Shown in pieces: positions 38,866-55,927 of a stretch of DNA of 55,927 nt (positions are counted from its first letter, which is position 1; each line of letters opens with the position of its first letter). The stretch is from a virus (taxonomy: Duplodnaviria > Caudoviricetes). Location: IMG/VR virus record IMGVR_UViG_3300042389_000953, positions 1 through 55,927 of that record; one strand, written 5' to 3'. The translations under genes were made by a program, and so were the position numbers. Below the pieces are notes generated by a model that made no database searches, was not told where the DNA came from, and worked only from the letters and a program-made list of their open reading frames with translations.

Positions 38866-38919
38866 AAGCTTGATGGGGATTTGCGTAGGTTACCAAGCAA
38901 CGCGGTTAAGCGCTGCAGC

Positions 38920-39138: not shown

Positions 39139-39143
39139 AAGCG

Positions 39144-41196: not shown

Positions 41197-41223
41197 CAGC
41201 CCAACTCCTCGCTGTAAAACGCG

Positions 41224-41421
41224 CTAAGGGGTCTCGCTGTAGAACGCGCTAAGGGGTCCGTAGACACGCTGCAGATCAGGGAAAGCCGCAAACAACGTAA
41301 GCCTGTTGGACGGATCTGCAGCCAAGCCTGCGTCAGCAAGCTTGCGCATAAAGTTGCCTCCGAACCTCTGCGCGGTAAGCAGGGTGTGGATTTGTTGCTC
41401 AGCAGTAAGGGGTGATGACAT
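41224..41421 (-). CDS. Hypothetical protein
   Basis: GG.F...LA.A...AD..N...L..AFP pattern. Confidence 0.65.
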   Translation of the reverse strand: MSSPLTAEQQIHTLLTAQRFGGNFMRKLADAGLAADPSNRLTLFAAFPDLQRVYGPLSAFYSETP

Positions 41422-41486
41422 AAGTGGTAAGTGGTAAGTGGTAAACGTAGAGCAGGAAGCGTCGCAGCTTAGGGAAGCGCCGCGGC

Positions 41487-41930: not shown

Positions 41931-42010
41931 CAACAGTAAGGGGGTGTGGGTAAGGGGAGGCCGCACATCGTAAGTGGTATGCGGCCGGTGGTGCAGCTAA
42001 GCAGCGCAGC

Positions 42011-42358
42011 TCAGACGGGGCAGGCCGCCTCAGCCTTAGCTTCAGCCTTGGCCTTGGGCTTACGGCCGCGCTTGGCGTCGGTCTCGGGGGGCTTCGGACC
42101 AGCAATCAGGTAGCAGCCGGTGCCATCCGCCTTCTTACGCACGGAGAATTTCACCGTGGTCGAGTTGGCAGTCATCGTGCCAGCCACCTGGCTGATGGTG
42201 GTGGCGCGGTAGCCGGCCTCGGCGTCGTGCGTGTCATAGGCGACCTCGATGGCCTCACCGACCTGCAGAGCGGCAAGCGCATTCCGCAGCGGGGTCGTTT
42301 TCGATGTGCGCGTGGCACGGCCCGGCAAATCCGCAGCCGACAGAACAGAGAACGTCAT
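42011..42358 (-). CDS. Basic hypothetical protein, possibly DNA-binding
   Basis: Lys/Ala-rich tail AKRGRKPKAKAEAKAE. Confidence 0.65.
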   Translation of the reverse strand: MTFSVLSAADLPGRATRTSKTTPLRNALAALQVGEAIEVAYDTHDAEAGYRATTISQVAGTMTANSTTVKFSVRKKADGTGCYLIAGPKPPETDAKRGRKPKAKAEAKAEAACPV

Positions 42359-42413
42359 AAGTGGTGCGTAAGACGCATGGAAAGCAGCAGCTTAAGCATG
42401 GCACAGCTCGATG

Positions 42414-42656
42414 TCAAGCCTGGAGTCTTCCCTGCACCTGATTCTGAATGCTCTTGCGTCTAAGCGCCTGGTCTTGTGCCTCGGCCAGGTTGTAGGCCGC
42501 GGCCTCGGTCGAACGCTTGATGGCCGAGTACAGCAGCTCCCGCGCATAAGCCGTGGTACGCATCCCGGCATCCTGCGCCAGCTGCTCCAGCAGCTCCGCC
42601 CTATGCGGATCCAGCAGGAGCTGGTAATACCGCTTGCTGCCGTGCAACCTCGCCAT
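42414..42656 (-). CDS. Putative ribbon-helix-helix-like DNA-binding protein
   Basis: YYQLLLDP.RAELL..LA...G...T...RE pattern. Confidence 0.55.
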   Translation of the reverse strand: MARLHGSKRYYQLLLDPHRAELLEQLAQDAGMRTTAYARELLYSAIKRSTEAAAYNLAEAQDQALRRKSIQNQVQGRLQA

Positions 42657-42681
42657 AAGTGGGTGTGACAATGTACTAAGC

Positions 42682-42897
42682 CTACCACCGCGCGGCGGGA
42701 TCGACGTGCTTCCGCCACGCATTGCTCTGCTGCCTCCGCGCCGAGCCGCGCTGCTTAGCGCACCCCTTCCTCACCAACCTGGCGAACTCCAAGAACTCCG
42801 CAGCCCGCTGCAGATCCGCAACGCTCGCCTGCCGCATCTCAGCCTGCAGCCACGCAACCATAATTTCGCGTCCCGTCCGCACTAAGCCGCGCCGCAT
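42682..42897 (-). CDS. Hypothetical protein
   Basis: A..ADLQRAA.FLE.AR.VR.G; directly downstream of polA. Confidence 0.6.
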   Translation of the reverse strand: MRRGLVRTGREIMVAWLQAEMRQASVADLQRAAEFLEFARLVRKGCAKQRGSARRQQSNAWRKHVDPAARW

Positions 42898-42951
42898 CGC
42901 GCCACAAGCTAAGCAGCGCTGTACGCCGCCGCTTAGCCCGCCGCCCCACAC

Positions 42952-44820
42952 CTACTTAGCGTCGGCCCAGGTTTTGCCGTAATTGGCCTCGGCCAGCGCC
43001 GGGATTTCACCCAGCCATAAGCTCTCTGCGCTCTCCATGCACTCCTGCAATATCCCCATCCACTTGGTTTCCTCCCCTTCCTTGACAAGCAGCAAAATTT
43101 CGTCGTGAATAACAGCGGCTAAGCGGGCCTCAGCTTCGCTGGCACGGCTTAGTGCGGGCCACAGCTTGCCCAACGCACACTTCAAAATCGCCGCACCACT
43201 CCCCTGCACCGGCGTATTACACCTGACAGTAACCCTATTCATATCCCCAGGCAAGTAACGCCGCATCCCACTAAGCGGAATGCGAGTCTCAGCCCACTTG
43301 TTCCCGCTCGACTCGTAACTAATTTGTGCATTGCGCTTTTGCCACTCGTTAACGCCGCTATAAGTGCTGTGGAACGTATCCCTAATCTGCTGCGCTTCCT
43401 CAAGCGTCATAGTAATACCCATAGCACCGGCATAATCCCTAAGACCACTCGCACCCGCGCCATACAACAAGCCGAAATTTGCAGACTTAGCCACTTGCCT
43501 GCGTTGTTTCATCTCCTTAGCGTCCTCAACCGGCTCGCCATAAATCGCCTCAGCGGTAATGGTGTGCAAGTCCTTGTCTGCCTGGAACGCTGCAATCATC
43601 GTTTCGTCCTCGGCAACGGCCGCGGCCAAACGCAGCTCCATTTGCCCGAAGTCAGCGCACACAAAGTTCCAGCCTTCCGGCGCCTCAGCGGCAACCCTAA
43701 ACGAATTGTCACGCGGAACTTGCTGCAGATTCGGCTCAACACAACTCATGCGTCCAGTTTCTGTACCCAACTGCATATAACCAGAACGAATAAAGCTATC
43801 GTCTTGCTGATGCTTTATGAGTGAGCACACCATCTGCCTACGCTTCTCGGCACGCTTCCACAGCAAGTAGGTCTGGACAACAGCGTGGTCCGCTGCGTAA
43901 GTACGAAGCGACTTCCGTGACGCACTCGGTTTACCGTCCAACAACGGAACAGTCCCAAGAAGCGTTGTAAATTTCGCAATAAGCTGCTTCGGCGAGTTCA
44001 GGTTGAATCCCGCCGGCTTCTTCGTACCAAGCCTTACAGCGCCTTCTGCCCTGGCCCGCAGGTTGAAGCTTCCGTCCTCGTCGCGGGGCAGCTTCTCCGA
44101 CTCCGGCAGCGCCGCATCCAAATCCTCGACGAACTTTTTGCCGTACATCTCGATGTCGCGCTCCAGCGATTCCTGCACCTCGACAAGCTTCTGCCGATTG
44201 AACGGGAGCCCGGTGCGCTGCATCTGCGCCATGGCCGGCAAGCACTTGCACTCCAACCCGAACGCTGCCGTGAGGCGTGCCACCGCCAACCGTTCCTGCA
44301 GCACTAGATCGAGATCGAGCAGCGCCTGCACGTCCGCTGCCGCGTAGGCCAGCTGTTCCTTGCTCAGGACTGGTGCGCTCCAATCGCTCGCCTGCAACTC
44401 CTTGCTGAGCGTGCGCTCCAGGTAACGCTCCACCACAAACCCCAAGCCATGCTTGAGATTCGGAACACCATTGGTAAGCAGCTTAGATGCCAACATTGTG
44501 CAGTAAGTCACGCCGTTGGGAATAATGCCGTGCTCCTGCAACCAACCCAAATCAAACACCGCATTGTGCGCGATGTAAGTGCGCGGTGTAGCAAAAAAGT
44601 CCCTTACTTGCTGCCACCCCTTCTCATCCAGCTCCCAGCAGTCAATAACAACAATGGCGCGGTCGCGGGCACCGATCTGCAGCAACCGCAGCCCACCAAC
44701 AACCGGCTGCAGCCCAGTGGTCTCTGAGTCAAACGCCACCGTCACCGACGCGGCAACCTTCCACAAATGCTCAACACCAAACAGAACAGGCGGCATAGCC
44801 GACGCAACAGGCTCAGACAT
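42952..44820 (-). CDS. polA: DNA polymerase family A with 3'-5' exonuclease
   Basis: FDSETTG, HNAVFD, YAAAD; TGRMS...PNLQQVPR, ADFGQMELR, RQVAKSANFGLLYG, IHDE. Confidence 0.97.
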   Translation of the reverse strand: MSEPVASAMPPVLFGVEHLWKVAASVTVAFDSETTGLQPVVGGLRLLQIGARDRAIVVIDCWELDEKGWQQVRDFFATPRTYIAHNAVFDLGWLQEHGIIPNGVTYCTMLASKLLTNGVPNLKHGLGFVVERYLERTLSKELQASDWSAPVLSKEQLAYAAADVQALLDLDLVLQERLAVARLTAAFGLECKCLPAMAQMQRTGLPFNRQKLVEVQESLERDIEMYGKKFVEDLDAALPESEKLPRDEDGSFNLRARAEGAVRLGTKKPAGFNLNSPKQLIAKFTTLLGTVPLLDGKPSASRKSLRTYAADHAVVQTYLLWKRAEKRRQMVCSLIKHQQDDSFIRSGYMQLGTETGRMSCVEPNLQQVPRDNSFRVAAEAPEGWNFVCADFGQMELRLAAAVAEDETMIAAFQADKDLHTITAEAIYGEPVEDAKEMKQRRQVAKSANFGLLYGAGASGLRDYAGAMGITMTLEEAQQIRDTFHSTYSGVNEWQKRNAQISYESSGNKWAETRIPLSGMRRYLPGDMNRVTVRCNTPVQGSGAAILKCALGKLWPALSRASEAEARLAAVIHDEILLLVKEGEETKWMGILQECMESAESLWLGEIPALAEANYGKTWADAK

Positions 44821-44902
44821 AGATCCAAAGCGATAAAGAGACGCCCCAGCCTAAGCCTGGAGCGCCCCTTACCCTAGCACACCGTAAGCGGTGGCGCCAC
44901 GC

Positions 44903-45124
44903 TCACACGCTCGGCGACTTGCCCACCCTGCCGCTGGTCCGTGGCGTCGATCCAGGCGGCTTGGCATCCTCGCGCCAGCCATGCGGCGGCTCTGGCATCC
45001 ACGCCGCCAACTGCACAAGGAACGCCGTCAACCGCTCCTCGTCCTGCTTGGCCTTGCGCAGCGCTTTACTCACGTTGCGTCCCACGAGTCTCGCCTCCGT
45101 GGGGGTAGCGCCGCTCACTTCCAC
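44903..45124 (-). CDS. Hypothetical protein
   Basis: ORF between primase and polA. Confidence 0.45.
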   Translation of the reverse strand: MEVSGATPTEARLVGRNVSKALRKAKQDEERLTAFLVQLAAWMPEPPHGWREDAKPPGSTPRTSGRVGKSPSV

Positions 45125-47622
45125 AGCTCCTCCGCCTCCCGCCGCAGCCGCTCCAGCTCCTCGACGCTCCGCTCAGTGGGCTCAGCGAGCCTCGCGCGTA
45201 TAGTTTCCGTATCTGTCCCATCAGGGCCACTTCGCTTGCGCTGCAACGGCTTTGCAATGGGACACACTTCCTCTTTTTCGGGAAGTGTCCCATCTGTCGT
45301 ACCAGCACCGCTCACGTTTTCCACAACCACACCCTCACCTGTGGAAAACTCCTCATCGCTAATGGGACACACCCCCTCGTTTTCACCCCCCTGTCCCATT
45401 GCAGAATCCGTTCCAGCACAAGGATTTTGCCCTATGGGACACGTTCTACCTACTTCTACGCGCGAGGAACTTAAAACCGCCTGGTAATGGTGGAGCGCCT
45501 TACCCCCTTTCTCGGCCTGAGTCTTATCTGCGACACAGATGAGACCGCGCTTCTCCAAGCGCTGCAGCGCCTTCCTGATCGCTGTGACCCTGCCGCCCAC
45601 GATCGGATCGGCGTTCAGCTCTGCCCTGGTACGCGCCTCGGGGTAGATCACGCGCAACCGCGCCAGCACGCGGTCGGTGATGGCGCTGGGGCCTGTCTCC
45701 GCTGGATCGACCTCTGGCACGTAGTCGCTGAGGGTGAAGGTCAGGTCGTCTTCCAGCTTCAGCAGCAGCCCTGTGCCCCCACGACCGCTCCGCGACTTCT
45801 CGATGGCTATGAGACGCGCATTCGCCCCCACAGCCTCCTGCTGGCGCTCTGAGGGCCGTTTCAGCGCCCACACCTCATCCACGGCATCCCTAATTGCCGA
45901 AGTCCCCCTAAAGCCGCCCTGCTTATTCGCGTGGTGAATAATTACGATGGTTGCTGCCGGAAACAGCACACCATTATTTCGCGTAAGCCAATACAGCGGC
46001 GTAGCAAAATCACTCTTGTTCTCATCGAACGCCTTACCACCACTACACCCAATAAGCGAATCAATCACCACAAGGCTTGGCCGTAGCTCCTCCATAAGGC
46101 TTATGAACTGGGCGTAGCGCTGGAGCGCCCAGTCGGTGCGGATCGTGACCGGCGCGTGAGCGGGCATCTCGACCTCCTGGAGCTGCTCCTGGAGCTGCAC
46201 CAGCGGCTGGTCGCCGTTCAGCAGCAACACAGGCCCCTGCTGGACCGGCACATGCTTCCCGCGAATGACGAACGGCAGCCCCATCGCAACATGCTTCGCC
46301 ATCGTCCACGCCGCCATTGACTTACCATCGCCACCAGCCCCATAAATGAGTACAACAGACGGGCTAGGCAGCAGATCAGGAATGAGGTACTTACGCTCAA
46401 ACTCCTGCTCCATAAGTTGCGCGATCGACATGGTATCTGTCTGACCCTCGTACTGGATCTGATCAACCAGCAACCGCTCCAGCGCCTCCTTATCCCTATA
46501 CCCCGACTCCACCGCCAGCGCGTGCATCTTGTAATTCAGTTCCGCCGGATTATCAATCTGCAACACCTCCTTAGCCCGCCTAATTACTTCGGCGAAGTCG
46601 AGTACGACATGGCGGTAAGCCTGAGCCTGTGTGCTCTCGACCTCCTCAAGCGTTGCCCTGCTGGAGTCCTGAAATCGCAACCTCCCTGGGTCGTACTCAT
46701 CCGCCAGCTTCACCAAGCTGCCCAGCCCCAGGTTCCCCGGCTTCCCGACCCGCTCCACAAGGCGCGGCCACTTCTCCTCGCACGGGTTCCCCTTCGTCCA
46801 GTCGTCTTCAAACGCCGGGTCTTGCTCGCTCCATGCCGTCCACAGCGCCAAGCCCATCTCACTTGGCAGCGCCTCAGCCACCATCGCGCCGATCTGCCAC
46901 CACTGATCCTCACTCCCCCTGCCCAGGTGGGGCATGACCTGCAGGCAGTCGTGAACGATCTCTGCAACCTCATCGCTGGTCCGACCCGAGAAGTCCAGGC
47001 CGCGGCGATTCTTCACCAGGCCCTGCACCGGCGCATCCGCCTGCTTCCGCGCCCGCATCTCAGCGAGCAACCACTCCGGCGCATCGGGAATCGCATCAAA
47101 GCTCCCCGAAACCAGCTTGTAGTGCCCCGGCTTGGCCTTACCGTCCCTCGACCCCGGATAAGCACCGGCAATTACGCCCTGCATCCCCCATAAGATTTCG
47201 TAGCCGCTGTTTCCTTGGCTAAGCGTCATACCGCGCACTAAGGCGCGTTGATCGGCTGGCACGCGAAAAACGAACTTGGCCGCATTCGGTTTTGTGCTTC
47301 GCACTTGCGGAGCATCGGCAATGGAATCGCCCCACTTCTTAAGCAGCGCAGCAAGATTCGCATCGACATCCAGAATTACGATGCCGTCGCTGCGGATGCC
47401 TGTGAACAGGCCCACGGCCTGGAACGTCTCGGGCTTCTGCTCCAGCAGCAACGCCACATCCTCCGGGTTGAACCGGCGGTGGTGGGACGCCTCATGTGGC
47501 GCCTTCCCTTGGCTCTCCGACTCGTGCTTCCCGAACTTGACCCCTTTGGCGTAGATGGGGGCGTAAGCGGGGCCTACAGGCAGTGTTCGCACGAAGCGAA
47601 TCAGCCCTTGGTGCGTGTTCAT
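45115..47622 (-). CDS. Primase-helicase (prim-pol + PriCT-2 + AAA_25/RecA-like ATPase)
   Basis: ILDVD; W.QIG.M....W..WS; GAGGDGKS, VVIDS, IIHHANK..RGTSAI. Confidence 0.9.
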   Translation of the reverse strand: MNTHQGLIRFVRTLPVGPAYAPIYAKGVKFGKHESESQGKAPHEASHHRRFNPEDVALLLEQKPETFQAVGLFTGIRSDGIVILDVDANLAALLKKWGDSIADAPQVRSTKPNAAKFVFRVPADQRALVRGMTLSQGNSGYEILWGMQGVIAGAYPGSRDGKAKPGHYKLVSGSFDAIPDAPEWLLAEMRARKQADAPVQGLVKNRRGLDFSGRTSDEVAEIVHDCLQVMPHLGRGSEDQWWQIGAMVAEALPSEMGLALWTAWSEQDPAFEDDWTKGNPCEEKWPRLVERVGKPGNLGLGSLVKLADEYDPGRLRFQDSSRATLEEVESTQAQAYRHVVLDFAEVIRRAKEVLQIDNPAELNYKMHALAVESGYRDKEALERLLVDQIQYEGQTDTMSIAQLMEQEFERKYLIPDLLPSPSVVLIYGAGGDGKSMAAWTMAKHVAMGLPFVIRGKHVPVQQGPVLLLNGDQPLVQLQEQLQEVEMPAHAPVTIRTDWALQRYAQFISLMEELRPSLVVIDSLIGCSGGKAFDENKSDFATPLYWLTRNNGVLFPAATIVIIHHANKQGGFRGTSAIRDAVDEVWALKRPSERQQEAVGANARLIAIEKSRSGRGGTGLLLKLEDDLTFTLSDYVPEVDPAETGPSAITDRVLARLRVIYPEARTRAELNADPIVGGRVTAIRKALQRLEKRGLICVADKTQAEKGGKALHHYQAVLSSSRVEVGRTCPIGQNPCAGTDSAMGQGGENEGVCPISDEEFSTGEGVVVENVSGAGTTDGTLPEKEEVCPIAKPLQRKRSGPDGTDTETIRARLAEPTERSVEELERLRREAEELWK

Positions 47623-47819
47623 GCGCTACAATCCTATGCGTGAAGAGGCATCGCGCCCCTCGACAGCCCAGCTGTGAGGGGCGTTTTTCACTGTAAGCCC
47701 TTGGCCTTGAAAGCGCAACGATGTACTACGCCATGGGTTGCCAGCCGTGCTACGCTGCGTAAGCACTCGGCACCGCCCCTCCGGGCACCGCCTCCTGCAT
47801 CCACACCCCACAACCTCTT

Positions 47820-48398
47820 ATGGGACTCCTTTCCAAGACCGCCCAAGCCGCCGTCGCTGGCGGTGGCGCCTACCTGAACCCCGGCAAGATCGCCGCGGGC
47901 TCGGCCGTCCGCTTCTGCCTGCTCAGCGAAGAACCGCTTGAGTTCTACGAGTGCTGGGGCGAAGGCGCCGACGGCAAGGCCAAACCCTTCCGCTTCGACT
48001 CCGAGCCCAGCCCCGACGACATCGCGCTGGCCATGGGCGACTTCAAGCGCCGCATGAACCGCGAGGGCAACGGCTTTGAGGCTGTCAAGTTCTGTCTCGC
48101 CATCCCCTGCTACAACTTTGAGGCAGCTCAGGTGCAAGTCCTGCAGCTCAGCCAGAAGTCGATCATCCGCGAACTCGACGCGGTAAGCCAGATGGAGGAC
48201 TACTCCGACATCCTGGCCATCGACTTCCTGCTCGGCAAGGAGGGCAGCGGCCTGAACACCGAATACAAGCTCACCCCCGTCCCCCGCAAGAAGGGTGCCG
48301 ACAAGGCCATCGCCGAAGCCTGGGAAGAGACCCGCTCCGCCGGCTTCGACATCAGCAGGCTGCTGGACGGCGCCGATCCCTTCAAGCCCGCCGAATAA
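47820..48398 (+). CDS. Putative single-stranded DNA-binding protein
   Basis: GG.YLNP.K...VRF, KP.RF, Q.SI..EL, TEYKL.P.P, DPF end; next to exonuclease. Confidence 0.7.
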   Translation: MGLLSKTAQAAVAGGGAYLNPGKIAAGSAVRFCLLSEEPLEFYECWGEGADGKAKPFRFDSEPSPDDIALAMGDFKRRMNREGNGFEAVKFCLAIPCYNFEAAQVQVLQLSQKSIIRELDAVSQMEDYSDILAIDFLLGKEGSGLNTEYKLTPVPRKKGADKAIAEAWEETRSAGFDISRLLDGADPFKPAE

Positions 48399-48496
48399 GC
48401 TGCGGCACCGCTAAGCGTAAGCTGCTGCACACATAAGCTGATGTGCGGTAGATTCACCCTTACGCTTAGTTGGGTATGAGTACGCATGAGGAGTAA

Positions 48497-49378
48497 GTGT
48501 TGCACCACTTACTCCTTTTTTGTGTAAGCTGTTACAGCTACGTTGCGTTGCTGTCGTTGTCCACTCTTGATCCCACCGAAGCACTAAGCGGCTTAGCTAA
48601 GTGGAAGCTGGAGCGTGACGACGAAAGTGACCCTAATGGGCGTATTTACCGCGATAAGCAGGGTGAAATTTACCATAGCGTTACCCGTATTCTTAAAGAG
48701 ACCAGTAATAGCAAGGCGGCGTTGGAAGCTTGGGCCGCCCGCTTAGGCGAAGAACGCGCCGCCCAGGAGCGCGACACCGCAGCGCAACGCGGCACGCTCA
48801 CCCACAACTGCGCCGAGTACCTGCTGCGCACCGCCAAGCGCATGGCCGACTCCACCGCTAAGCGCCGCAACTCCTGGTACACGAAATCAGACGGCCTAGG
48901 CCGCGCTCCGGCTCCTCTCACCAGATGGGCACTTACCCAGGTGCTGCCCAGCGTCCCTAAGGCCGGTCTTAGTGCTGCCGGCTATCGCCGCGGCTTGCTC
49001 GGCTGGATAAGCGAAAACGTAACCGCAATCCACGCCATTGAATTTAGCGTGCATCATCCTGCAGGTTTCGCCGGCACCTGCGACGGACTAATCGACTATA
49101 AAGGTAAGGGGCCTTTCGTCGCAGACTGGAAAACCTCCTTCAACAAACGCTCCGAAGAACTCCTTACCGACTACACCGACCAGATCGGCGCCTACAGCCT
49201 CGGCCTACGCCACCTAACCGGCATCCAAGCCGTAGGCGGCCTCATCGTCGTAGCACGCCGCGCCGGTAAGCCGGATGTGCGCGAACTAAGCGCCTTGGAA
49301 GTGCGTGGCGCCGAATGCCGCTACTTAGAGCGCTGCGAAGCCTACTTCGATGCGTTGCATAAGCAGCTAAGCAGCTGA
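48497..49378 (+). CDS. PD-(D/E)XK exonuclease (Cas4/RecB-like); true start probably downstream
   Basis: HSVTRIL, RGT..H, FAGTCD.L, DWKTS, Q..AY. Confidence 0.88.
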   Translation: MLHHLLLFCVSCYSYVALLSLSTLDPTEALSGLAKWKLERDDESDPNGRIYRDKQGEIYHSVTRILKETSNSKAALEAWAARLGEERAAQERDTAAQRGTLTHNCAEYLLRTAKRMADSTAKRRNSWYTKSDGLGRAPAPLTRWALTQVLPSVPKAGLSAAGYRRGLLGWISENVTAIHAIEFSVHHPAGFAGTCDGLIDYKGKGPFVADWKTSFNKRSEELLTDYTDQIGAYSLGLRHLTGIQAVGGLIVVARRAGKPDVRELSALEVRGAECRYLERCEAYFDALHKQLSS

Positions 49379-49480
49379 GCGGTTGCGCAGCGTACGGCGA
49401 TAAGTCTTGTCACCTAAAATGGTTGGAGCTGCGGCGTAACAGCGCCCAGCTCCCGGATCACTCACCGAAATTGAGCAACC

Positions 49481-50242
49481 ATGGATATTCAAGCAAACCT
49501 CGGCGGCCTCTGGACCTGCGATCTCGGTGAGATCCGCATGACACCCCAGGGACAGCCCAGCGTTTTCGACATGATCAAGGTGCTTGGGGGGAGTAGCAAC
49601 CCCAGACGCGACTGGGCGCGTATCACTGAGTCCCACCCTGAGGTTGTACCAAAAACGGACAACCTCAAGTTCCCCGGCCCCGGCCAGCGTGAAACCCCGA
49701 TCGCCCGCACCAAGGAGGACGCCTACTACATCCTCGGCTTGCTGCCTGGAGCGGTCGGCCGGAAATACCGCGAGCAGGCCGCTGAACTGTTCAGCCGGTT
49801 CCTTGACGACCCCGCCTCAGTTGCGTCAGCCGCTGTCGAGCGGATGTCTGACGAGGAGCGCGATCGGCTTGAAGCCCGCCTAAAGGGAAAACGTACCAGG
49901 CATGTGTTTACAGATGTGCTTAAAGATCATGGAGTAGTGCAAGTGGGATACGGGAACTGCACTAATGCGGTTTATGTGCAAATACTTGGAGCTACCGCAC
50001 GACAGCTAAAAGTAGGAATTGCCGCCACTAAAAACCTACCCGTGCAGCGCGTAAACCCCCGCGATCACTTCTCGGTACAGCAGCTCGGCGACGTTGAAAC
50101 CGCAGAGCGTATTGCAGCCGGCCAAATTCGCCGCCACTCCGCGCACGGAAACACTGCCGTAGAGCACGTAGTCCTCCACAGCGCCGCCTACACACGTCGC
50201 CTTCTCGACGGCGATATTGACATACCCGGCCTAAGCCACTAA
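49481..50242 (+). CDS. Antirepressor-like DNA-binding protein (Bro-N/KilA-like N-terminus, DinD-like C-terminus)
   Basis: SVFDMI....NPR..W.R, FPGPGQRETP; TN.VY...G.TA..LK...N.RD. Confidence 0.6.
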   Translation: MDIQANLGGLWTCDLGEIRMTPQGQPSVFDMIKVLGGSSNPRRDWARITESHPEVVPKTDNLKFPGPGQRETPIARTKEDAYYILGLLPGAVGRKYREQAAELFSRFLDDPASVASAAVERMSDEERDRLEARLKGKRTRHVFTDVLKDHGVVQVGYGNCTNAVYVQILGATARQLKVGIAATKNLPVQRVNPRDHFSVQQLGDVETAERIAAGQIRRHSAHGNTAVEHVVLHSAAYTRRLLDGDIDIPGLSH

Positions 50243-50325
50243 GCTGGTTGGCGTGCTCCTCCTCCGGGGCGGTTAGGTCCAACTCCCAGACGTTTTGCGG
50301 CGTGGGGGGAGTTGGGTTTGTTTCT

Positions 50326-50364
50326 GAGAGACCTCCCGGTTGGCGCCGGGGGGTCTTTCGCTTT
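50326..50364 (+). terminator. Putative intrinsic terminator
   Basis: Stem GAGAGACCTCCCGG / CCGGGGGGTCTTTC, interrupted T tail. Confidence 0.6.
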
Positions 50365-50427
50365 GTTGGCTCAGCGCTGCTTAGCACCCGCACCCCTTAG
50401 CCTCTTAGCACTGCAGCGCCCCCACTT

Positions 50428-51120
50428 ATGGCTCGCACAATCGAGTTCGACGTGGAGCGCATCTTCCGTAAGCTGAATGTGCTGGAAGGTACGCAGATCA
50501 AATACGCCGCTAAGCGGACCATGGCTCGCTTCGGCTATGAGGCCCGCGAGTACCTTGTAATGAAGATGGTAGGTAGCTTTAAGAATCCCGTTGACTACAC
50601 ACTACAGTCACCGCTATACGATAAGCAGCTAATTGAAACACCTAACAGCGTCGCCGTAAGATTATACATTAGCACTGATAGCTCTAAAGGTAATGCGCCA
50701 ACCTCCTACCTTTACCCGGTGGATCGCGGTAGCGCATCCAACGAGGCCTACTTAGGCCGCTTTGCACGCGGCTTGGCTAAGACTGGCGTAACGACTAAGT
50801 TTCCGGTGCCGTATAAGCAAGGTTCTAAAGTACAGCGCAATAAATTCGGCAATATGGAAGGTAGCCAGTACCAAGAGGTGCTAAAAGCGGTGCAGCGGAA
50901 AGGTGGAACGATCTTCGCCCTGCCGAACGGCTCCCCAGGCGGCCTGCTGCCTCCCGGCATCTACAAACGCGAGGGCCGATCCGCCTTCCTCCTCTTCGCG
51001 CTCCTCAACAGCACTCCTACCGTCTACTCCCCATTCGACTCCTACAACGCCGTCCGCCTTCTGGCCAACCAACGCCTCCCTAAGCTGATAGGCGAAGAAC
51101 TGGCCAAAGCCCTGCGCTAA
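50428..51120 (+). CDS. Basic phage protein, possibly neck/minor tail (gpZ-like)
   Basis: Q..YA....M..., F.NP..YT, N.FGN, GIY.R pattern. Confidence 0.5.
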   Translation: MARTIEFDVERIFRKLNVLEGTQIKYAAKRTMARFGYEAREYLVMKMVGSFKNPVDYTLQSPLYDKQLIETPNSVAVRLYISTDSSKGNAPTSYLYPVDRGSASNEAYLGRFARGLAKTGVTTKFPVPYKQGSKVQRNKFGNMEGSQYQEVLKAVQRKGGTIFALPNGSPGGLLPPGIYKREGRSAFLLFALLNSTPTVYSPFDSYNAVRLLANQRLPKLIGEELAKALR

Positions 51121-51252
51121 GCTGCGCCGCTAAGCTGCGCCGCTGCGCTGCTGCGCCGCTTAGCTTACGTTTTACAACACCCCTTACACGACCCCTTACC
51201 CCGCTTCAGCTTACGTGTGCTACGCTTACTCGTGTTCAACCCCTTAGCACCG

Positions 51253-51984
51253 ATGCTTACACCCCTTATCCGCCTGGCCGACGCCGCCTACCGCGCTGGC
51301 GTCCCCCTTATGTCAGACGCCGCCTTCGATCGCCTGGCCAGCCTCGCCCCCAACGCCCTGCCCCCACTTTCCACGCTGCTTAGCCTCGACTGCCACCCCG
51401 ACCCGCACGACTGGCTGGAGCGCAACCCCGGCCCCTACGCCGTCCAACTCAAAGCCGACGGCGTAAGCGTCAACCTCGTCTACCTCGACGGCCGCTTCAG
51501 CCACGCCCACCTACGCAGCGGCCGTGACTGCACCGATGCTGCCCTCCGCGCTGGTGCGCTGCTCGACCTCCCCGGCTCCCCCGTGGGCCGCGTCGAAGTC
51601 CGCTGCGAGGCCATGGCGTTCGCCTACACAAACCCCGGCAAGCCCCCCACCCGCAACGCCTGCGCCGCCGCCCTCCGCCGTAAGGGGCTGCAGGACAAAC
51701 TCAACCTCAGCCTGCTCGCTTTCGACATCACCGGCATCGACGCCATCACCACACACTGCGGCGCCCTCACTTGGCTCAAGTGCGCCGGCTTCGCCACCCT
51801 CGACGCCCTGGAAGCCGCCACCGCCACCGAGGTGCTTGAGCTGTTCGACGCCTTCTGCGTCTGCCAGCCCACCCTGCCCTTCCCCTGCGACGGCATCACC
51901 GTCAAGCTCGACTCCAAGATCCGCCAACGCCAGCTCGGCAACGACTCCCGCGCCCCTAAGTGGGCGATAAGCATGAAGCCGTAA
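51253..51984 (+). CDS. Stand-alone NAD-dependent DNA ligase adenylation domain
   Basis: AY....PLMSDAAFD (Ia), KADG (I), EVRCE (III), RNACAAALR, DGITVK (IV), PKWAISMK (V) then stop. Confidence 0.85.
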   Translation: MLTPLIRLADAAYRAGVPLMSDAAFDRLASLAPNALPPLSTLLSLDCHPDPHDWLERNPGPYAVQLKADGVSVNLVYLDGRFSHAHLRSGRDCTDAALRAGALLDLPGSPVGRVEVRCEAMAFAYTNPGKPPTRNACAAALRRKGLQDKLNLSLLAFDITGIDAITTHCGALTWLKCAGFATLDALEAATATEVLELFDAFCVCQPTLPFPCDGITVKLDSKIRQRQLGNDSRAPKWAISMKP

Positions 51985-52044
51985 GCCGCGCAGCGCTAAG
52001 CCGCGGCACTAAGTCGCCCCAACGTCCTACGCACGCACCTACTC

Positions 52045-52446
52045 ATGTCCTTAGCTCGTCAGCTCTATCCAAACGCCTTTCAGCGTAAGTACCAGCGCAT
52101 TGACAATTACGAACCCATAATCAACCATTTAGGCAAACCCTTAGTACACACAGACACAGATCCTTATCAAGGAGACGCGCTAGTCCTACTTCGCACAGAT
52201 ACCGGCTACGGCTTTCTTGTATTCGGTTATGGCAGCTGCTCAGGTTGCGACGCCCTGCAAGCCTGCGATTCCTACGAAGACTTAGAGTCTTTAATCGACG
52301 ACCTTATCGCGTCCATGAAAACCTTCGACACCTTGGCCGATGCGCAACTTCACATCGCAAACAACAACTACCACGAATTGCGCTACCATTACCATCTAAA
52401 GGAATGGCAGGAGTTTCGCTCCGCCTGCCTAAGCCTCGACGCCTAA
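52045..52446 (+). CDS. Hypothetical phage protein
   Basis: YQGD...GYGSCSGCD motif. Confidence 0.7.
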   Translation: MSLARQLYPNAFQRKYQRIDNYEPIINHLGKPLVHTDTDPYQGDALVLLRTDTGYGFLVFGYGSCSGCDALQACDSYEDLESLIDDLIASMKTFDTLADAQLHIANNNYHELRYHYHLKEWQEFRSACLSLDA

Positions 52447-52501
52447 GCCTCGACGCCTAAGCCGCGGCACTGCCCCACACCACGTACCCACACTTAGTCT
52501 C

Positions 52502-52738
52502 ATGAGTCTCACCCCCATGCCTGGCACGCCCCTCACCCCGGAGCGCCGCCCCCTTACACCCACCGCCGCCTTACGCGAGGCCAAACTCCGCCTAGCCAAC
52601 GACATCGAGAACCTCCTCGACACCTTCACTAAGCTGACGGACCTAAGCGTAAGTGAAATCTATGTAGAGCAAGTGCTCATGCACACGCCTCACCCCACAT
52701 TCAACCGCCACCTCGTACGCCTGCGCATAAGTCTGTGA
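52502..52738 (+). CDS. Hypothetical protein
   Basis: ATG ORF in cluster of small genes. Confidence 0.55.
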   Translation: MSLTPMPGTPLTPERRPLTPTAALREAKLRLANDIENLLDTFTKLTDLSVSEIYVEQVLMHTPHPTFNRHLVRLRISL

Positions 52739-52884
52739 ACCGCAAACTCCTCACAATCTGCGACGTAATCTGCTTCGCAATCACGGCTGGAACGATCGCC
52801 CTGCTCGCCTGGGGCATCACCACCTACCCCTCCCCCACCCACAGCGGCACACAACCCCTAAGCCGCCCCACACCCACGCGCTAA
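52735..52884 (+). CDS. Small membrane protein, not in ORF track
   Basis: GTGA-coupled; one TM helix. Confidence 0.45.
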   Translation: MNRKLLTICDVICFAITAGTIALLAWGITTYPSPTHSGTQPLSRPTPTR

Positions 52885-52938
52885 GCGCTACGCCGCCCAA
52901 CTGCCCCTTACCCCTTACCCCTTACCACGCCGCAGCTT

Positions 52939-53115
52939 ATGACCCTCCTACCGTTTACCTGCAGCGCGTCCCGTCCTGGTGCGCCACTTATCCGCATCGG
53001 CATCCTGGCCCGCTCCAAGAGCGACGCCCACACCACCGCCACCGAACTCTTCCCCGCCTATACCATCGGCCTTGTCGAACTCAGCCCCGAGTGGACCGAT
53101 AAGCACGACGCCTAA
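52939..53115 (+). CDS. Small hypothetical protein (58 aa), not in ORF track
   Basis: MTLLPFTCSASRPGAPLIRIGILARSKSDAHTTATELFP... Confidence 0.5.
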   Translation: MTLLPFTCSASRPGAPLIRIGILARSKSDAHTTATELFPAYTIGLVELSPEWTDKHDA

Positions 53116-53153
53116 GCTTCCACGCATCCAAGCACCTACGCCGCCCCTTACTT

Positions 53154-53351
53154 ATGACAGCATCCAACCTGCAACTTACGCAGCTTAAGCGTTACTGGTT
53201 CCAGATCGAGTCCACTAACCAAATCCAGTGCGTGTGGGCCGTAAGCTTTACCGAGGCCAAAGACAAAGCCGCTAAGCGTTACCTACCGCAGTGGCGTGGC
53301 ATCAGCTGGATCGACGTAAGCGGCGGCACCTCCACAGGGCGAGACTCATGA
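53154..53351 (+). CDS. Hypothetical protein
   Basis: KRYWFQI.....V.A.SF.EAK.KA. Confidence 0.55.
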   Translation: MTASNLQLTQLKRYWFQIESTNQIQCVWAVSFTEAKDKAAKRYLPQWRGISWIDVSGGTSTGRDS

Positions 53352-53403: not shown

Positions 53404-53712
53404 ATGCCGCGCCTCCTTACCCGCCACCAACTGCTAAGCCTCTACTACACCATCCCCACCACCTCCACTTACGAAGACCGCTTAGTCGCCTATGGCAATG
53501 CGGTCCAGTCCTGGCTAAGCAGCCCCGAATCGGAAGATCCGCGCAGCCCGCTCTCCTCCCTCTGCTTACCGCAGCGCATTTACGGCGCCCTCCGCCGCGC
53601 CGGCTACACCTACGTCGATGACGTGCGCAACGCCACCGACGCCCAACTGCTCAGCGCCCGCGACTTCGGCCCTAAGGGGTTGCGCCTGCTCCGCCAAGCG
53701 CTAAGCGGCTAA
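53404..53712 (+). CDS. Protein with RNA polymerase alpha-CTD-like domain
   Basis: L..L.L..R.Y.AL.RAG...V.D......L....FG.K.L..L..AL. Confidence 0.75.
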   Translation: MPRLLTRHQLLSLYYTIPTTSTYEDRLVAYGNAVQSWLSSPESEDPRSPLSSLCLPQRIYGALRRAGYTYVDDVRNATDAQLLSARDFGPKGLRLLRQALSG

Positions 53713-53859: not shown

Positions 53860-54990
53860 GTGACTTACCTGCTCACCAACCAGGCCACCCACTCCGACAC
53901 CACCGAGGCCCGCAGGGTCTCACGGATGCAGCGCCACGAGATCACCAGCGGCTACAGCCGTGACCGCCACCTCCTGCTCACCTCGCCGCCGCAGATCGCA
54001 CTGCAGGCCGGTGGTACGCCCATCGGCCCCGACGCCACACCCCGCCAAGCCTTCGCCGCAGCCGGCGCCGACTTCGCCGTAAGCGCGAAGCCGATCGCAT
54101 TCGACAACGCTGTCGAGTACGGCGGCGATGCCCCTGAGTCCGACTGGCGCTGCGTAAGCAGCCACAAGGCGATCGTCCGCGAGGACATCGGCCGCTGCCT
54201 GGGCATTGTGGGTCGTAATTACACCCCCGTTCAGAACGAAGCGCTCATCGGCCTCTTCGACTTCCTGCACGAAGACGCCAAGATCGACAACATCGTCACC
54301 CTGCGCCACGGCGCTAAGACGATCGTGACCGCATCCCTGGCGATCGAAGGTGAGGTGAAAGAGGGCGACACCATCCGCCGCTACCTGCACGCCTTCAACA
54401 GCTTCGACGGCAGCAGCAGCCTTGGCGTGTTCTTCAGCGACATGCGCATGGTCTGCAGCAACCAGATCTCTTACATCACCGGCAAGGGCGCCCGCAAAGC
54501 CTCCAAGGCTGGCGAGGGCCTGCTGATGCGCCACACCTCCGGTGTGCAGGAGTTCGCCAAGCGACTGCCCCAGCTCATCGACCTGCAGAACCGCTGCTTT
54601 GAGCAAGACCTCGCCGAGCTGCGCCCCCTCACCACCATGCGCCTCACCACCGAGGCGGCCCGCGCCATCCTTGAGGCCACCTTTGCCGACAAGCTGAGCA
54701 CCCCCGTCACCGACAAGGACAGCGGCAAGAAGCGCCAGCGCACCCTCGACGACCTCACCGAAATCCCCCTCATCCGTTCCCACTACGGCAAGGGCACCGG
54801 CATCGGCATCGACACCGCCGACAAGTCCGTCTGGAACATGCTCCAAGCCATCACCCAGAACCAAACCCACGACCTGGGCCGCGGCGCCACCGACCTGGAC
54901 CGTGCCCGTGCCCGCCTGGAATCCCTCTGGGGCGGCGACTCCGCCAAGCGCATCGCCCGCGCTAAGCAGGCGTGTCTCGCCGCTATCTAA
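53860..54990 (+). CDS. DUF932/DUF945-family phage/plasmid protein; start uncertain
   Basis: LGIVG..YTPVQN, NSFDGSS, R.VCSN, RHT, W....A.T....H. Confidence 0.85.
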   Translation: MTYLLTNQATHSDTTEARRVSRMQRHEITSGYSRDRHLLLTSPPQIALQAGGTPIGPDATPRQAFAAAGADFAVSAKPIAFDNAVEYGGDAPESDWRCVSSHKAIVREDIGRCLGIVGRNYTPVQNEALIGLFDFLHEDAKIDNIVTLRHGAKTIVTASLAIEGEVKEGDTIRRYLHAFNSFDGSSSLGVFFSDMRMVCSNQISYITGKGARKASKAGEGLLMRHTSGVQEFAKRLPQLIDLQNRCFEQDLAELRPLTTMRLTTEAARAILEATFADKLSTPVTDKDSGKKRQRTLDDLTEIPLIRSHYGKGTGIGIDTADKSVWNMLQAITQNQTHDLGRGATDLDRARARLESLWGGDSAKRIARAKQACLAAI

Positions 54991-55054
54991 GCCGTAGCGC
55001 TGCTTAGCCGCAGCGCTACTTAGCCGCAGCGCTGCTTAGCCGCAGCGCTACTTA
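54991..55054. repeat. 16-bp tandem repeat GCCGYAGCGCTRCTTA x4
   Basis: Read directly. Confidence 0.92.
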
Positions 55055-55082
55055 GCCCCACTTACCCCTCGCCCTACCAACC

Positions 55083-55370
55083 ATGTCTACGTCCCTCCTC
55101 TACTTAGCCGACCACTTCACCTACGAGCAGCGCATAAGCCCGCCGCCGACCGCCTACGGCCGCACCGCCTCGGGCTACGGCAACAGGATCGCCACCGATT
55201 GGCTGGTACGCATAAGCGGCAGCACTGGTACGCAGCCCGCTCTCTACGGCGGCGACTGCCGCTGGCGCCGCGTCTACGCGACCTGCTGGAGCAACTCCGC
55301 CTCCCTCTGGGTAAACGTGCCGGGGCATCGCTTCTACTTCCGCGACTGCGACCTAAGCCACACGGCGTAA
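55083..55370 (+). CDS. Hypothetical phage protein
   Basis: TASGYG.RI.T...RRVY..CWSN motif. Confidence 0.65.
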   Translation: MSTSLLYLADHFTYEQRISPPPTAYGRTASGYGNRIATDWLVRISGSTGTQPALYGGDCRWRRVYATCWSNSASLWVNVPGHRFYFRDCDLSHTA

Positions 55371-55629
55371 AACGCTGGTACGACAGCGCTCCACTAAGCC
55401 TGGAGCGCTAAGCTAATAAGTTTTAAGTTGCGCTTGGAAAAATTTGAGACATGCGCACTGCCGGTTCTTTAAGCAAAATTTTACGCACGCCTAAGCCGAA
55501 AAATTTAGGAACTTGCGGGGGGTCGGTTCTTAAGGCACTTTTTCACACACACAAACTTACACAACTTCTCGCACCCCCTCACCCACTCCGGCAGCGAGGC
55601 GGCGCCCCGCGCCCCCACAGCTCCCGCCG

Positions 55630-55724
55630 TGTACACCTGTACTATAGTACAAGTGTACGCTAGTACAGCCGTACCTATAGTACAGCCGTACCGTAGTACA
55701 GCCGTACGCTAGTACAGCCGTACT
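55630..55724. promoter_or_regulatory. Array of 12 GTAC at 8-bp period (LexA-box-like GTAC-N4-GTAC)
   Basis: GTAC at 55631, 39, 47, 55, 63, 71, 80, 88, 96, 55704, 12, 20; the repeat is certain, the function inferred. Confidence 0.55.
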
Positions 55725-55776
55725 GCCCCTGCCGGCCCATGCGGTCATGCCGGTAGCGTTATAAGGGGTTAGGTAG

Positions 55777-55927
55777 GCTAACCCGCTGAGAGTTAGGTGA
55801 GCTAACCCGCTGAGAGTTAGGTGAGCTAACCCGCTGAGAGTTAGGTGAGCTAACCCGCTGAGAGTTAGGTGAGCTAACCCGCTGAGAGTTAGGTGAGCTA
55901 ACCCGCTGAGAGTTAGGTGAGCTAACC
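55777..55927. repeat. 24-bp tandem repeat GCTAACCCGCTGAGAGTTAGGTGA x6.3 (runs off the right edge)
   Basis: Exact copies; each contains CTAAC-N9-GTTAG inverted repeat. Confidence 0.97.

What the first reader, a model, noticed from the sequence alone, without database searches (positions are those of the whole stretch)
51253..51984. Stand-alone NAD+-ligase nucleotidyltransferase domain ending exactly at motif V
Seen: domain Ia and motifs I (KADG), III, IV and V are recognisable, the stop follows motif V, and no OB, Zn-finger, HhH or BRCT coding follows. Known: LigA needs the OB/HhH clamp to seal nicks, while the isolated N-terminal domain still self-adenylates from NAD+. Inference: a repurposed NAD+-dependent adenylyltransferase (5'-end capping of DNA/RNA, protein AMPylation, NAD/NMN manipulation against defence) or a split ligase using a partner in trans.
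Basis: partly seen in the sequence, partly recalled or inferred. Interest (0 to 1): 0.75.

Follow-up and report, generated by a model that had tools for sequence, protein, structure and literature searches.

The report
OB-less phage NAD-ligase with partner
A tailed phage carries an intact, conserved gene for only the NAD-binding, self-adenylating half of a bacterial DNA ligase, almost always placed right after a gene for a very basic protein of unknown fold, which suggests a two-piece ligase whose DNA-gripping part is not the usual one.

Summary
ORF 51253-51984 (+, 243 aa) is a shortened domain Ia plus the nucleotidyltransferase (NTase) domain of NAD+-dependent ligase LigA. It stops one residue after the motif V lysine (K242 = E. 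coli K314). The window is a complete 55.9-kb siphovirus genome. No OB, Zn-finger, HhH_2, BRCT or ATP-ligase domain was found in any of its six frames.

It is not a pseudogene:
- 80 of 81 close homologues are 235-282 aa, and more distant stand-alone forms end at the same point.
- The adenylylation residues are invariant in 46 of 46 aligned sequences.
- dN/dS is 0.02-0.16 for close pairs.

New here is a gene pairing. A basic 230-aa protein (pI about 10, PHROG 1924, no Pfam or PDB match) lies directly upstream. It accompanies all 18 OB-less loci and none of 6 OB-bearing loci. In the reverse test, 18 of 20 contigs found through this protein carry the NTase gene next to it.

My best reading (about 0.4) is the catalytic subunit of a two-component NAD+ ligase, as in T5 LigA/LigB, with a non-canonical partner. 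Binding and activity are untested.

Stand-alone Ia+NTase ligases were already reported in Prochlorococcus, and this scan met them before on other DNA. This is a new variant of a known kind.

The parts
51253..51984 (+). Gene for a stand-alone short domain Ia plus NTase domain of NAD+-dependent ligase (243 aa, P0001). An alternative GTG start lies at 51217.
   Evidence: The family has 81 near-length homologues.
51289..51330 (+). Domain Ia NMN-binding segment (Y13, R14, D22, F25, D26). It aligns with the LigA segment 'YY....P..SD.EYD'.
   Evidence: Conservation counts: Y13 in 46/46, D26 in 46/46, D22 in 44/46, F or Y at 25 in 46/46. Alignments. The role of the E. coli equivalents (Y22, H23, D32, Y35, D36) is recalled, not read here.
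51451..51462 (+). Motif I KADG. K67 is the predicted AMP-accepting lysine.
   Evidence: K67, D69 and G70 are each invariant in 46/46. The sequence was read.
51607..51609 (+). Motif III glutamate, E119.
   Evidence: Invariant in 46/46.
51889..51906 (+). Motif IV DGITVK (D213, G214, K218).
   Evidence: D213 and G214 are invariant in 46/46. K218 is not conserved: K 29, S 13, R 2, T 1, N 1 of 46.
51976..51984 (+). Motif V lysine K242, then P243, then stop TAA.
   Evidence: K242 is invariant in 46/46 and aligns with K314 of 2owo_A.
50428..51120 (+). Upstream gene for a 230-aa basic protein (PHROG 1924 family). It is the candidate partner.
   Evidence: Co-occurrence. pI 9.96 and net charge +15.5. 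No Pfam match and no PDB match.
50325..50360 (+). Terminator-like hairpin just upstream of the two-gene pair. None was found between the two genes.
   Evidence: This is a consensus scan only, and the count did not exceed the shuffles.
51115..51144 (+). Tandem CGCTAAGCTGCGC units in the 132-nt spacer between the two genes. They contain the partner gene's stop codon.

Best explanation
The gene encodes the catalytic adenylyltransferase subunit of a two-component NAD+-dependent polynucleotide ligase.

Step 1, strongly inferred. The short domain Ia and the NTase domain bind NAD+. Lys67 attacks it, giving enzyme-AMP and releasing NMN.

Steps 2 and 3, inferred. AMP is passed to a 5'-phosphate at a nick or at annealed genome ends, and the strand is sealed. 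In LigA this needs the OB and HhH domains to hold the DNA. Here that grip must be supplied in trans.

Partner, inferred from gene association only. The prime candidate is the strongly basic 230-aa protein encoded directly upstream at 50428-51120. It travels with OB-less NTase genes across very divergent phages. It would take the DNA-holding part played by the OB domain of T5 LigA and by T5 LigB, without being related to either.

The likely use is sealing nicks in phage DNA during replication or recombination, or closing the injected linear genome.
For: Catalytic competence:
- K67, D69, G70, E119, D213, G214 and K242, and the Ia residues Y13 and D26, are invariant in 46 of 46 sequences spanning 27-88% identity.
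- The model is confident, with pLDDT 91.6, and superposes on NAD+- and AMP-bound LigA adenylation domains.

Real and selected:
- 81 near-length homologues, and no close longer form.
- dN/dS is 0.16 and 0.02 in the two close pairs.
- The OB-less proteins group together in a 75-row tree. The group has 40 rows and SH-aLRT 90.

Precedent for a split NAD+ ligase in phages:
- T5 has ligA (323 aa) and ligB (259 aa).
- The family profile aligns to T5 LigA residues 4-247 with 99.4% probability.
- PDB 9hu3 and 9i5i are titled 'PR1 phage heterodimeric DNA ligase'.

Partner association:
- Among 24 NTase-seeded viral loci, 18 have an OB-less NTase gene (one of them, L009, is cut by the contig end). All 18 carry the partner.
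- In 16 of the 18 it lies directly upstream on the same strand. In L013 and L020 it lies 3-4 kb away on the other strand.
- None of the 6 OB-bearing loci (4 of 362 aa, 2 of 562 aa or more) carries it.
- In the reverse test, 18 of 20 distinct partner-seeded contigs have the NTase gene immediately downstream. That includes 6 of the 8 contigs not seen before.
- In the more distant loci the pair is almost the only thing shared with the window. No other shared protein lies within about 6 kb of the pair.
- All 18 partner sequences are strongly basic: pI 9.7-10.6, median net charge +19. The NTase is near neutral.

This is the genome's only ligase-like gene. It lies in the replication and recombination block with PolA, primase-helicase, SSB and a PD-(D/E)XK exonuclease.
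Against: - No physical interaction or activity has been shown.
- The partner has no detectable similarity to the T5 LigA OB domain, to T5 LigB or to full-length LigA. hhalign probabilities are 0.1-0.5%.
- The partner's fold is unassigned. The model has pLDDT 72.8, and the most conserved loop is low-confidence.
- Weak hints point to a tail-completion-like fold instead. These are the PHROG label 'minor tail protein', VIA Z 6.5 to 9mu2_P, and hhalign against lambda gpZ at 9.8% probability and E 0.003.
- Partner relatives occur without any NTase gene just upstream of terminase genes, in L050 and in Pseudomonas phage vB_Pae_U8.
- Window and L004 share 95% identical NTase but only 67% identical partner. 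The two genes recombine independently.
- The motif IV lysine is replaced in 17 of 46 members (S in 13). The position matching E. coli R200 is Q in 13 of 46. The E. coli correspondence and its importance are recalled.
- The co-occurrence counts are not phylogenetically independent.
Confidence: 0.4

Rival explanations
1. A stand-alone NAD+-dependent adenylyltransferase that does not seal DNA. After self-adenylylation it passes AMP to another acceptor. Candidates are the basic neighbour protein, a 5'-phosphate DNA or RNA end (capping or priming), or some other target.
For: - Residues needed for adenylylation are invariant. Two residues that align to positions recalled as important for later ligase steps vary: K218 is replaced in 17 of 46 and R134 in 14 of 46.
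- No OB or HhH domain exists anywhere in the genome.
- The partner has invariant Thr and Tyr residues (T58, Y94, Y179) inside a conserved, poorly modelled loop.
Against: - I recall no precedent for a LigA-type NTase that AMPylates proteins. My literature searches for phage NTase-only LigA found nothing on function.
- R142, S232-R233 and position 236 are mostly kept. In LigA the matching positions lie on the DNA-facing side; this is recalled.
- The genomic setting is DNA replication and recombination.
Confidence: 0.25
2. The NTase works with host factors (for example the host clamp, SSB or another DNA-binding protein) or very weakly alone. The upstream gene is a virion tail-completion-like or packaging-associated protein, and its adjacency is inherited gene order rather than function.
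For: - The partner carries the PHROG label 'minor tail protein' in 18 of 18 members.
- hhalign gives a weak co-linear C-terminal match to lambda gpZ, with E 0.003 and 9.8% probability.
- VIA gives Z 6.5 to a SaPI1 tail completion protein.
- No tail completion protein was recognised among the structural-module ORFs scanned against PHROGs.
- NTase-less relatives sit next to terminase genes.
- The partner allele was swapped independently of the NTase gene.
Against: - The pair persists next to unrelated replication genes in phages that otherwise share almost no detectable protein with the window.
- The 18-of-18 against 0-of-6 split follows the absence or presence of the OB domain.
- Pfam Minor_tail_Z and DUF6441 find nothing in the window or in 5 related records at E <= 10.
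- All the structural hints are below significance.
Confidence: 0.17
3. A catalytically idle remnant kept as an NAD+/NMN-binding or regulatory protein, as was assumed for the truncated ligases of Prochlorococcus.
For: - Hjerde et al. judged the truncated forms very unlikely to be active, and could not obtain soluble protein (whole text read).
- Passages read describe the NTase and OB domains as the minimal catalytic unit (PMC10504179).
Against: - Every adenylylation residue is invariant in 46 of 46 sequences across deep divergence, and selection is purifying.
- Earlier notes from this scan describe the Prochlorococcus copies as having eroded catalytic residues. That contrasts with this family. 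I did not check those notes.
Confidence: 0.08

Closest known systems
Bacteriophage T5 / PR1 heterodimeric NAD+-dependent DNA ligase (LigA + LigB; PDB 9hu3, 9i5i)
   Same: Both are phage-encoded NAD+ ligases split into separately encoded pieces. The catalytic piece has the same shortened domain Ia and the same NTase domain. hhalign gives 99.4% probability over T5 LigA residues 4-247, and Foldseek gives E 6.5e-14 to 9hu3_E.
   Different: T5 LigA keeps the OB domain (residues about 248-323), and its partner LigB is annotated with a BRCT-type domain. Here the OB domain is absent. The neighbouring gene lies upstream rather than downstream and shows no similarity to LigB or to the OB domain.
Truncated NAD-dependent ligases 'ND-Lig tr' of Prochlorococcus (Hjerde et al. 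2020, bioRxiv 10.1101/2020.05.11.089284)
   Same: The architecture matches: fewer than 260 residues, only the Ia and NT domains, carried on mobile DNA or prophage remnants, forming a clade apart from full-length LigA (whole text read).
   Different: Those were reported without conserved neighbours and were presumed inactive. This family keeps all adenylylation residues and has a near-obligate neighbouring gene. Direct sequence relatedness to the Prochlorococcus proteins was not tested here.
Bacterial LigA (E. coli LigA, 671 aa)
   Same: Domain Ia and the NTase domain are homologous, including motifs I, III, IV and V.
   Different: The OB, Zn-finger, HhH and BRCT domains are missing. The score is 63.9 bits against the TIGR00575 cut-off of 444. 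Domain Ia is shorter, and there are several internal deletions.
362-aa phage NTase+OB ligases (loci L021, L023-L025)
   Same: Minimal phage NAD+ ligases with a short domain Ia and an NTase domain.
   Different: They retain PF03120 OB at E 1e-16 to 1e-19, and no PHROG 1924 gene lies nearby.

Membership tests
NAD+-dependent DNA ligase LigA (full-length, TIGR00575 / NF005932) | NTase domain with motifs I (KxDG), III, IV and V | tested here: met
   PF01653 at E 6.3e-19. K67, D69, G70, E119, D213, G214 and K242 are invariant in 46/46.
NAD+-dependent DNA ligase LigA (full-length, TIGR00575 / NF005932) | Domain Ia conferring NAD+ specificity | tested here: met
   The family profile aligns from LigA residue about 9. 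Y13, D22, F25 and D26 are conserved. The domain is shortened.
NAD+-dependent DNA ligase LigA (full-length, TIGR00575 / NF005932) | OB-fold domain following motif V | tested here: not met
   The stop comes one codon after K242. PF03120 is absent from all six frames of the genome at E <= 1.
NAD+-dependent DNA ligase LigA (full-length, TIGR00575 / NF005932) | Zn-finger, HhH and BRCT modules | tested here: not met
   PF03119, PF12826 and PF00533 are absent at E <= 1.
NAD+-dependent DNA ligase LigA (full-length, TIGR00575 / NF005932) | Score above the curated equivalog cut-off | tested here: not met
   63.9 bits against 444.45, and 62.8 bits against 369.
NAD+-dependent DNA ligase LigA (full-length, TIGR00575 / NF005932) | NAD+-dependent self-adenylylation and nick sealing | not testable with these tools
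   This needs enzyme assays.
T5-type heterodimeric NAD+ ligase (LigA/LigB) | Catalytic subunit with short domain Ia plus NTase | tested here: met
   hhalign of A1 against T5 LigA gives 99.4% probability and E 4e-21, over T5 residues 4-247.
T5-type heterodimeric NAD+ ligase (LigA/LigB) | OB domain on the catalytic subunit | tested here: not met
   The protein ends where the T5 LigA OB domain begins.
T5-type heterodimeric NAD+ ligase (LigA/LigB) | Adjacent LigB-like second subunit | tested here: not met
   The neighbour (A2) against T5 LigB gives 0.15% probability. No BRCT or HhH_2 domain is in the genome.
Truncated NAD-dependent ligases (ND-Lig tr, Hjerde et al. 2020) | Fewer than 260 aa, only the Ia and NT domains | tested here: met
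   243 aa with PF01653 only. The definition was read.
Truncated NAD-dependent ligases (ND-Lig tr, Hjerde et al. 2020) | Carried on mobile or prophage DNA | tested here: met
   The window is a complete virus record with siphovirus structural genes.
Truncated NAD-dependent ligases (ND-Lig tr, Hjerde et al. 2020) | Same clade as the Prochlorococcus proteins | not tested
PHROG 1924 / lambda gpZ-like tail completion proteins (for the neighbour gene) | Match to the PHROG 1924 profile | tested here: met
   18 of 18 members match. The best E is 9.5e-30, and the window protein scores 5.4e-19.
PHROG 1924 / lambda gpZ-like tail completion proteins (for the neighbour gene) | Homology to Minor_tail_Z (PF06763) / lambda gpZ | tested here: inconclusive
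   No PF06763 match in the window or in 5 related records at E <= 10. hhalign against lambda gpZ gives 9.8% probability and E 0.003 over 74 columns. VIA gives Z 6.5 to 9mu2_P.
PHROG 1924 / lambda gpZ-like tail completion proteins (for the neighbour gene) | Presence in the virion | not testable with these tools
   This needs virion proteomics.

The most novel reading that the evidence does not exclude
A widespread phage cassette encodes a new kind of NAD+-dependent ligase. A 243-aa Ia-NTase subunit with no OB fold is completed in trans by a strongly basic protein of an unassigned fold. That fold may derive from a tail-completion protein that touches the DNA end. The NTase and OB domains would then not be the irreducible core of a polynucleotide ligase. 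Alternatively, the pair is an NAD+-driven AMP-transfer system acting on the partner or on the ends of the phage genome.
Probability: 0.35. Interest if true: 0.8.

Novelty: new variant of a known kind. Interest (0 to 1): 0.62.

Why it matters
Passages read in the ligase literature treat the NTase and OB domains as the minimal catalytic unit of a ligase (PMC10504179). Truncated NAD-ligase genes were dismissed as inactive leftovers (bioRxiv 10.1101/2020.05.11.089284).

This family has more than 80 members and is under purifying selection. Its adenylylation residues are intact, and it has a near-obligate basic neighbour gene. That turns the dismissal into a directly testable question: can an OB-less LigA core seal DNA when a different protein supplies the DNA grip, or has it acquired another AMP-transfer role?

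Either answer would explain a recurrent and so far unexplained gene in phages and marine mobile elements. It might also yield a compact, modular NAD+-dependent ligase.

Tried and rejected
- Complex prediction on NTase plus partner (alignments A1 and A2) returned 'no answer', with score 0.00 in two runs. This is not evidence either way.
- An OB domain hidden in the partner. A motif resemblance (SKGNxPAxYLYPV against the LigA OB segment GRTGxxTPVAxLEPV) was not supported. hhalign gave 0.1-0.5% probability against T5 LigA, T5 LigB and a 22-sequence LigA alignment. No OB fold appeared in the top 50 VIA rows.
- Fold of the partner. There was no PDB sequence hit at E <= 10 and no Foldseek PDB hit at E <= 0.001. 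The best VIA Z was 6.7, below the tool's stated noise level of 7-8. BFVD returned only two unnamed viral proteins. No Pfam family was found for any of the 18 members. The ESM Atlas returned hypothetical clusters with DUF6441 or Minor_tail_Z on only 11-14% of members.
- Other candidates for the trans partner.
  - The downstream 133-aa ORF 52045-52446 is missing from the closest relative, L004.
  - The alphaCTD-like ORF 53404-53712 is shared only with L004.
  - The partner is not similar to ORF 9386-9988.
- Readthrough or frameshift into an OB domain. Two in-frame TAA codons follow the gene, and no OB-coding frame exists anywhere.
- Close relatives among cultured phages. Megablast found none. 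tblastn with the NTase found only full-length LigAs of jumbo and other phages at 25-30% identity.
- Host. One genome-collection hit is a Hyphomonadaceae MAG contig that carries the pair. This is a hint only.
- Literature. Five searches found no paper on the function of phage NTase-only LigA: 'heterodimeric DNA ligase' + phage, the LigA/LigB/T5-like set, the adenylation-domain/OB-fold set, 'DNA_ligase_aden' and 'PF01653'. The paper behind PDB 9hu3 was not found. PMC2659207 and PMC2516987 are not held, so the roles of individual E. coli residues are recalled. Supplements of the Hjerde preprint were not seen. They may list phage-borne truncated ligases.

Full report
**What is there.** The window is a complete virus record of 55,927 bases, with a CheckV completeness estimate of 100%. 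It is a siphovirus. It has a small and a large terminase, a portal, a fused protease-major head protein, a 1,677-aa tape measure protein and a lambda J-like tip protein.

The finding lies in the replication and recombination block. That block holds family A DNA polymerase (42952-44820, minus strand), primase-helicase (45115-47622, minus strand), an SSB-like protein (47820-48398), a PD-(D/E)XK exonuclease (48497-49378), a regulator-like protein (49481-50242), the 230-aa gene at 50428-51120, and then the finding's ORF.

**The observation.**
- ORF 51253-51984 encodes 243 aa. It matches the LigA adenylation domain PF01653 at E 6.3e-19.
- It also matches LigA equivalog models, but far below their cut-offs, at 63.9 bits against 444.
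- A profile of the family matches 28 PDB LigA sequences over its whole length, domain Ia included. The best is E 1.2e-46.
- The AlphaFold model has pLDDT 91.6. Its best Foldseek matches are NAD+- or AMP-bound LigA adenylation domains at E about 1e-18.
- Residues 61-242 align with residues 109-314 of E. coli LigA. The E. coli NTase domain is aa 70-316, and the OB domain starts at 317 (passage in PMC4797296).
- The protein therefore ends at the domain boundary, one residue after the motif V lysine.
- Six-frame searches of the whole genome found no LigA OB, HhH_2, Zn-finger or BRCT domain and no ATP-dependent ligase domain at E <= 1. The controls were positive.

Domain Ia is shortened: motif I sits at residue 67, against 115 in E. 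coli.

**It is a conserved family, not a broken gene.**
- The near-length search returned 81 proteins at E <= 0.001 among 4,882 candidates, at 52-93% identity. 80 of them are 235-282 aa, and PF01653 is the only Pfam family recorded for any of them.
- The 'longer' search returned only 4 ordinary LigAs of 677-736 aa at 28-30% identity. The tool itself calls this weak evidence.
- The exhaustive representative search found 1,374 proteins at E <= 0.001. Among the best 150 are many other stand-alone proteins of 231-290 aa at 30-38% identity. They align from about residue 5 to residue 242, so they end at the same place.
- In a 46-sequence alignment, K67, D69, G70, E119, D213, G214 and K242 and the Ia residues Y13 and D26 are invariant. 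D22 is kept in 44 of 46, and position 25 is F or Y in 46 of 46.
- dN/dS is 0.16 for window vs L004 and 0.02 for L007 vs L008. Deeper pairs give 0.29-0.51 with dS of 0.5-1.6. The neighbouring exonuclease gives 0.03-0.17.
- In a quick maximum-likelihood tree of 75 NTase domains, 28 of 29 stand-alone rows, all 11 close-family rows and one 275-aa row form a single group with SH-aLRT 90. That is below the 95 mark. T5 LigA sits on a long, unresolved branch.

**Against canonical chemistry.**
- The motif IV lysine (K218 here) is S, R, T or N in 17 of 46 sequences.
- R134 is Q in 13 of 46.
- I recall the E. coli equivalents as K290 and R200, both important in E. coli LigA. I could not read the papers.

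**The new element: a conserved neighbour.**
- The 230-aa protein encoded at 50428-51120 matches PHROG 1924, labelled 'minor tail protein', at E 5.4e-19. It matches no Pfam family.
- Among 24 viral loci found through the NTase, 18 have an OB-less NTase gene. One of these, L009, is cut by the contig end.
- All 18 carry a homologue of the 230-aa protein. In 16 it lies directly upstream on the same strand. In L013 and L020 it lies 3-4 kb upstream on the other strand.
- The other 6 loci encode OB-bearing forms: four of 362 aa with PF03120, and two of 562 aa or more. None of them has the neighbour.
- The reverse test used loci found through the neighbour. They comprise 20 distinct contigs, 8 of them new. 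18 carry the NTase gene immediately downstream, including 6 of the 8 new ones. In L037 the NTase gene is split between two frames.
- L044 and L050 lack the NTase gene.
- A contig of a Hyphomonadaceae MAG also carries the pair.
- In the distant loci the flanking genes are different. They include VapE-like or zinc-ribbon primase-helicases. The pair is nearly the only thing shared with the window. L013, L017 and L022 each share one to three further proteins, none within about 6 kb of the pair.
- All 18 neighbour proteins are strongly basic, with pI 9.7-10.6 and median net charge +19. The NTase family is near neutral.
- A terminator-like hairpin precedes the pair, and none separates the two genes.

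**What the neighbour is remains open.**
- The profile found no PDB sequence match.
- The model has pLDDT 72.8. The invariant loop (G88, P91, Y94, P97) is poorly modelled.
- Foldseek against the PDB gave nothing at E <= 0.001. The best VIA Z was 6.7, below the tool's stated noise level. The SaPI1 tail completion protein ranked third at Z 6.5.
- hhalign against T5 LigA, T5 LigB and full-length LigA gave null results.
- hhalign against lambda gpZ gave a weak co-linear C-terminal match, with 9.8% probability and E 0.003.
- Pfam Minor_tail_Z and DUF6441 found nothing in this genome or in five related records.
- Relatives without an NTase gene lie just upstream of terminase genes, in L050 and in Pseudomonas phage vB_Pae_U8.
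- Window and L004 have 95% identical NTase and 99% identical exonuclease, but only 67% identical neighbour. The neighbour allele was exchanged on its own.

**Comparison with what is known.**
- Phage T5 encodes a two-gene NAD+ ligase, ligA (323 aa) and ligB (259 aa). PDB 9hu3 and 9i5i are titled 'PR1 phage heterodimeric DNA ligase in complex with nicked DNA'.
- The family profile aligns to T5 LigA residues 4-247 with 99.4% probability. This protein therefore corresponds to T5 LigA without its OB domain.
- Stand-alone Ia+NT 'ND-Lig tr' proteins under 260 aa were reported on Prochlorococcus genomic islands and in a prophage remnant. They had no conserved neighbours and were presumed inactive, and the protein was insoluble (bioRxiv 10.1101/2020.05.11.089284, whole text read).
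- Earlier notes from this scan led me to that preprint and to the T5 case.
- Passages read say that NTase plus OB is regarded as the minimal catalytic unit (PMC10504179). They also say that only the NTase domain is needed for all three steps, while NTase, OB and HhH together clamp the DNA (PMC4797296).
- That an isolated adenylation domain self-adenylates is supported here only by PDB titles, such as 3uq8 'in adenylated state'. The original biochemistry is recalled.

**Verdict.** The most likely reading (about 0.4) is a catalytic subunit that self-adenylylates from NAD+ and needs a trans-acting DNA-binding partner, with the conserved basic neighbour as the prime candidate.

The rivals are:
- a non-sealing AMP-transfer role (0.25);
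- cooperation with host factors, the neighbour being an unrelated virion or packaging protein (0.17);
- an idle NAD+-binding remnant (0.08).

The architecture is known. The cassette, and its complementary distribution with the OB domain, turned up in none of my literature searches.

Noticed in passing
window 34235-53187, e.g. 51118-51139, 51982-52005, 37119-37140: The 9-mer TAAGCYGCG occurs 16 times against 1.8 expected, and none of 100 shuffles reached 16. All copies lie in the 34-53 kb early/replication region. They are often doubled about 13-15 nt apart at gene ends. At both genes of the pair the TAA of the motif is the stop codon. It may be a terminator, a processing signal or a regulatory signal.
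   Followed up: partly
window 1-422 and 54981-55927: Both ends of the linear record are filled with perfect or near-perfect tandem repeat arrays (periods 14, 7, 34, 33, 16, 33 and 24 nt). The 24-nt unit occurs 6.7 times at 55768-55927. These may be terminal, packaging or origin-related repeats.
   Followed up: no
window 53404-53712 (+): A 102-aa ORF matches the C-terminal domain of RNA polymerase alpha subunit (PF03118, E 2.3e-7), a helix-hairpin-helix module. It is shared only with the closest relative, L004. It is not the LigA HhH domain.
   Followed up: partly
window 50428-51120 vs L004 7189-7881: The 230-aa neighbour gene is only 67% identical (dS 0.83) between two phages whose flanking genes are 94-99% identical (dS about 0.17). 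This points to a localised allele exchange.
   Followed up: partly
window 5080-8253 (+): A 1,057-aa ORF seems to fuse a head maturation protease-like region with the major head protein (PHROG 617 at E 9e-146 over residues 466-1056, plus PHROG 80 and 133).
   Followed up: no
window 37984-38865 (-) and 37424-37987 (-): The phage encodes an RNA polymerase sigma factor (PHROG 351, E 4e-73) next to a deoxynucleoside monophosphate kinase (PHROG 139).
   Followed up: no
window 29760-30970: Long imperfect arrays with periods of 27, 54 and 81 nt lie inside ORF 29593-31095 (500 aa). This suggests a repetitive fibre-like protein.
   Followed up: no
L037 4484-5232: In one related contig the NTase gene is split between two overlapping frames (profile positions 1-150 and 143-250). 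This is either a frameshift or a sequencing error.
   Followed up: no
L021, L023, L024, L025: A separate group of viral contigs encodes 362-aa minimal NAD+ ligases (short Ia + NTase + OB, nothing else). A small ORF of 132 or 194 aa with no Pfam match follows each of them.
   Followed up: partly
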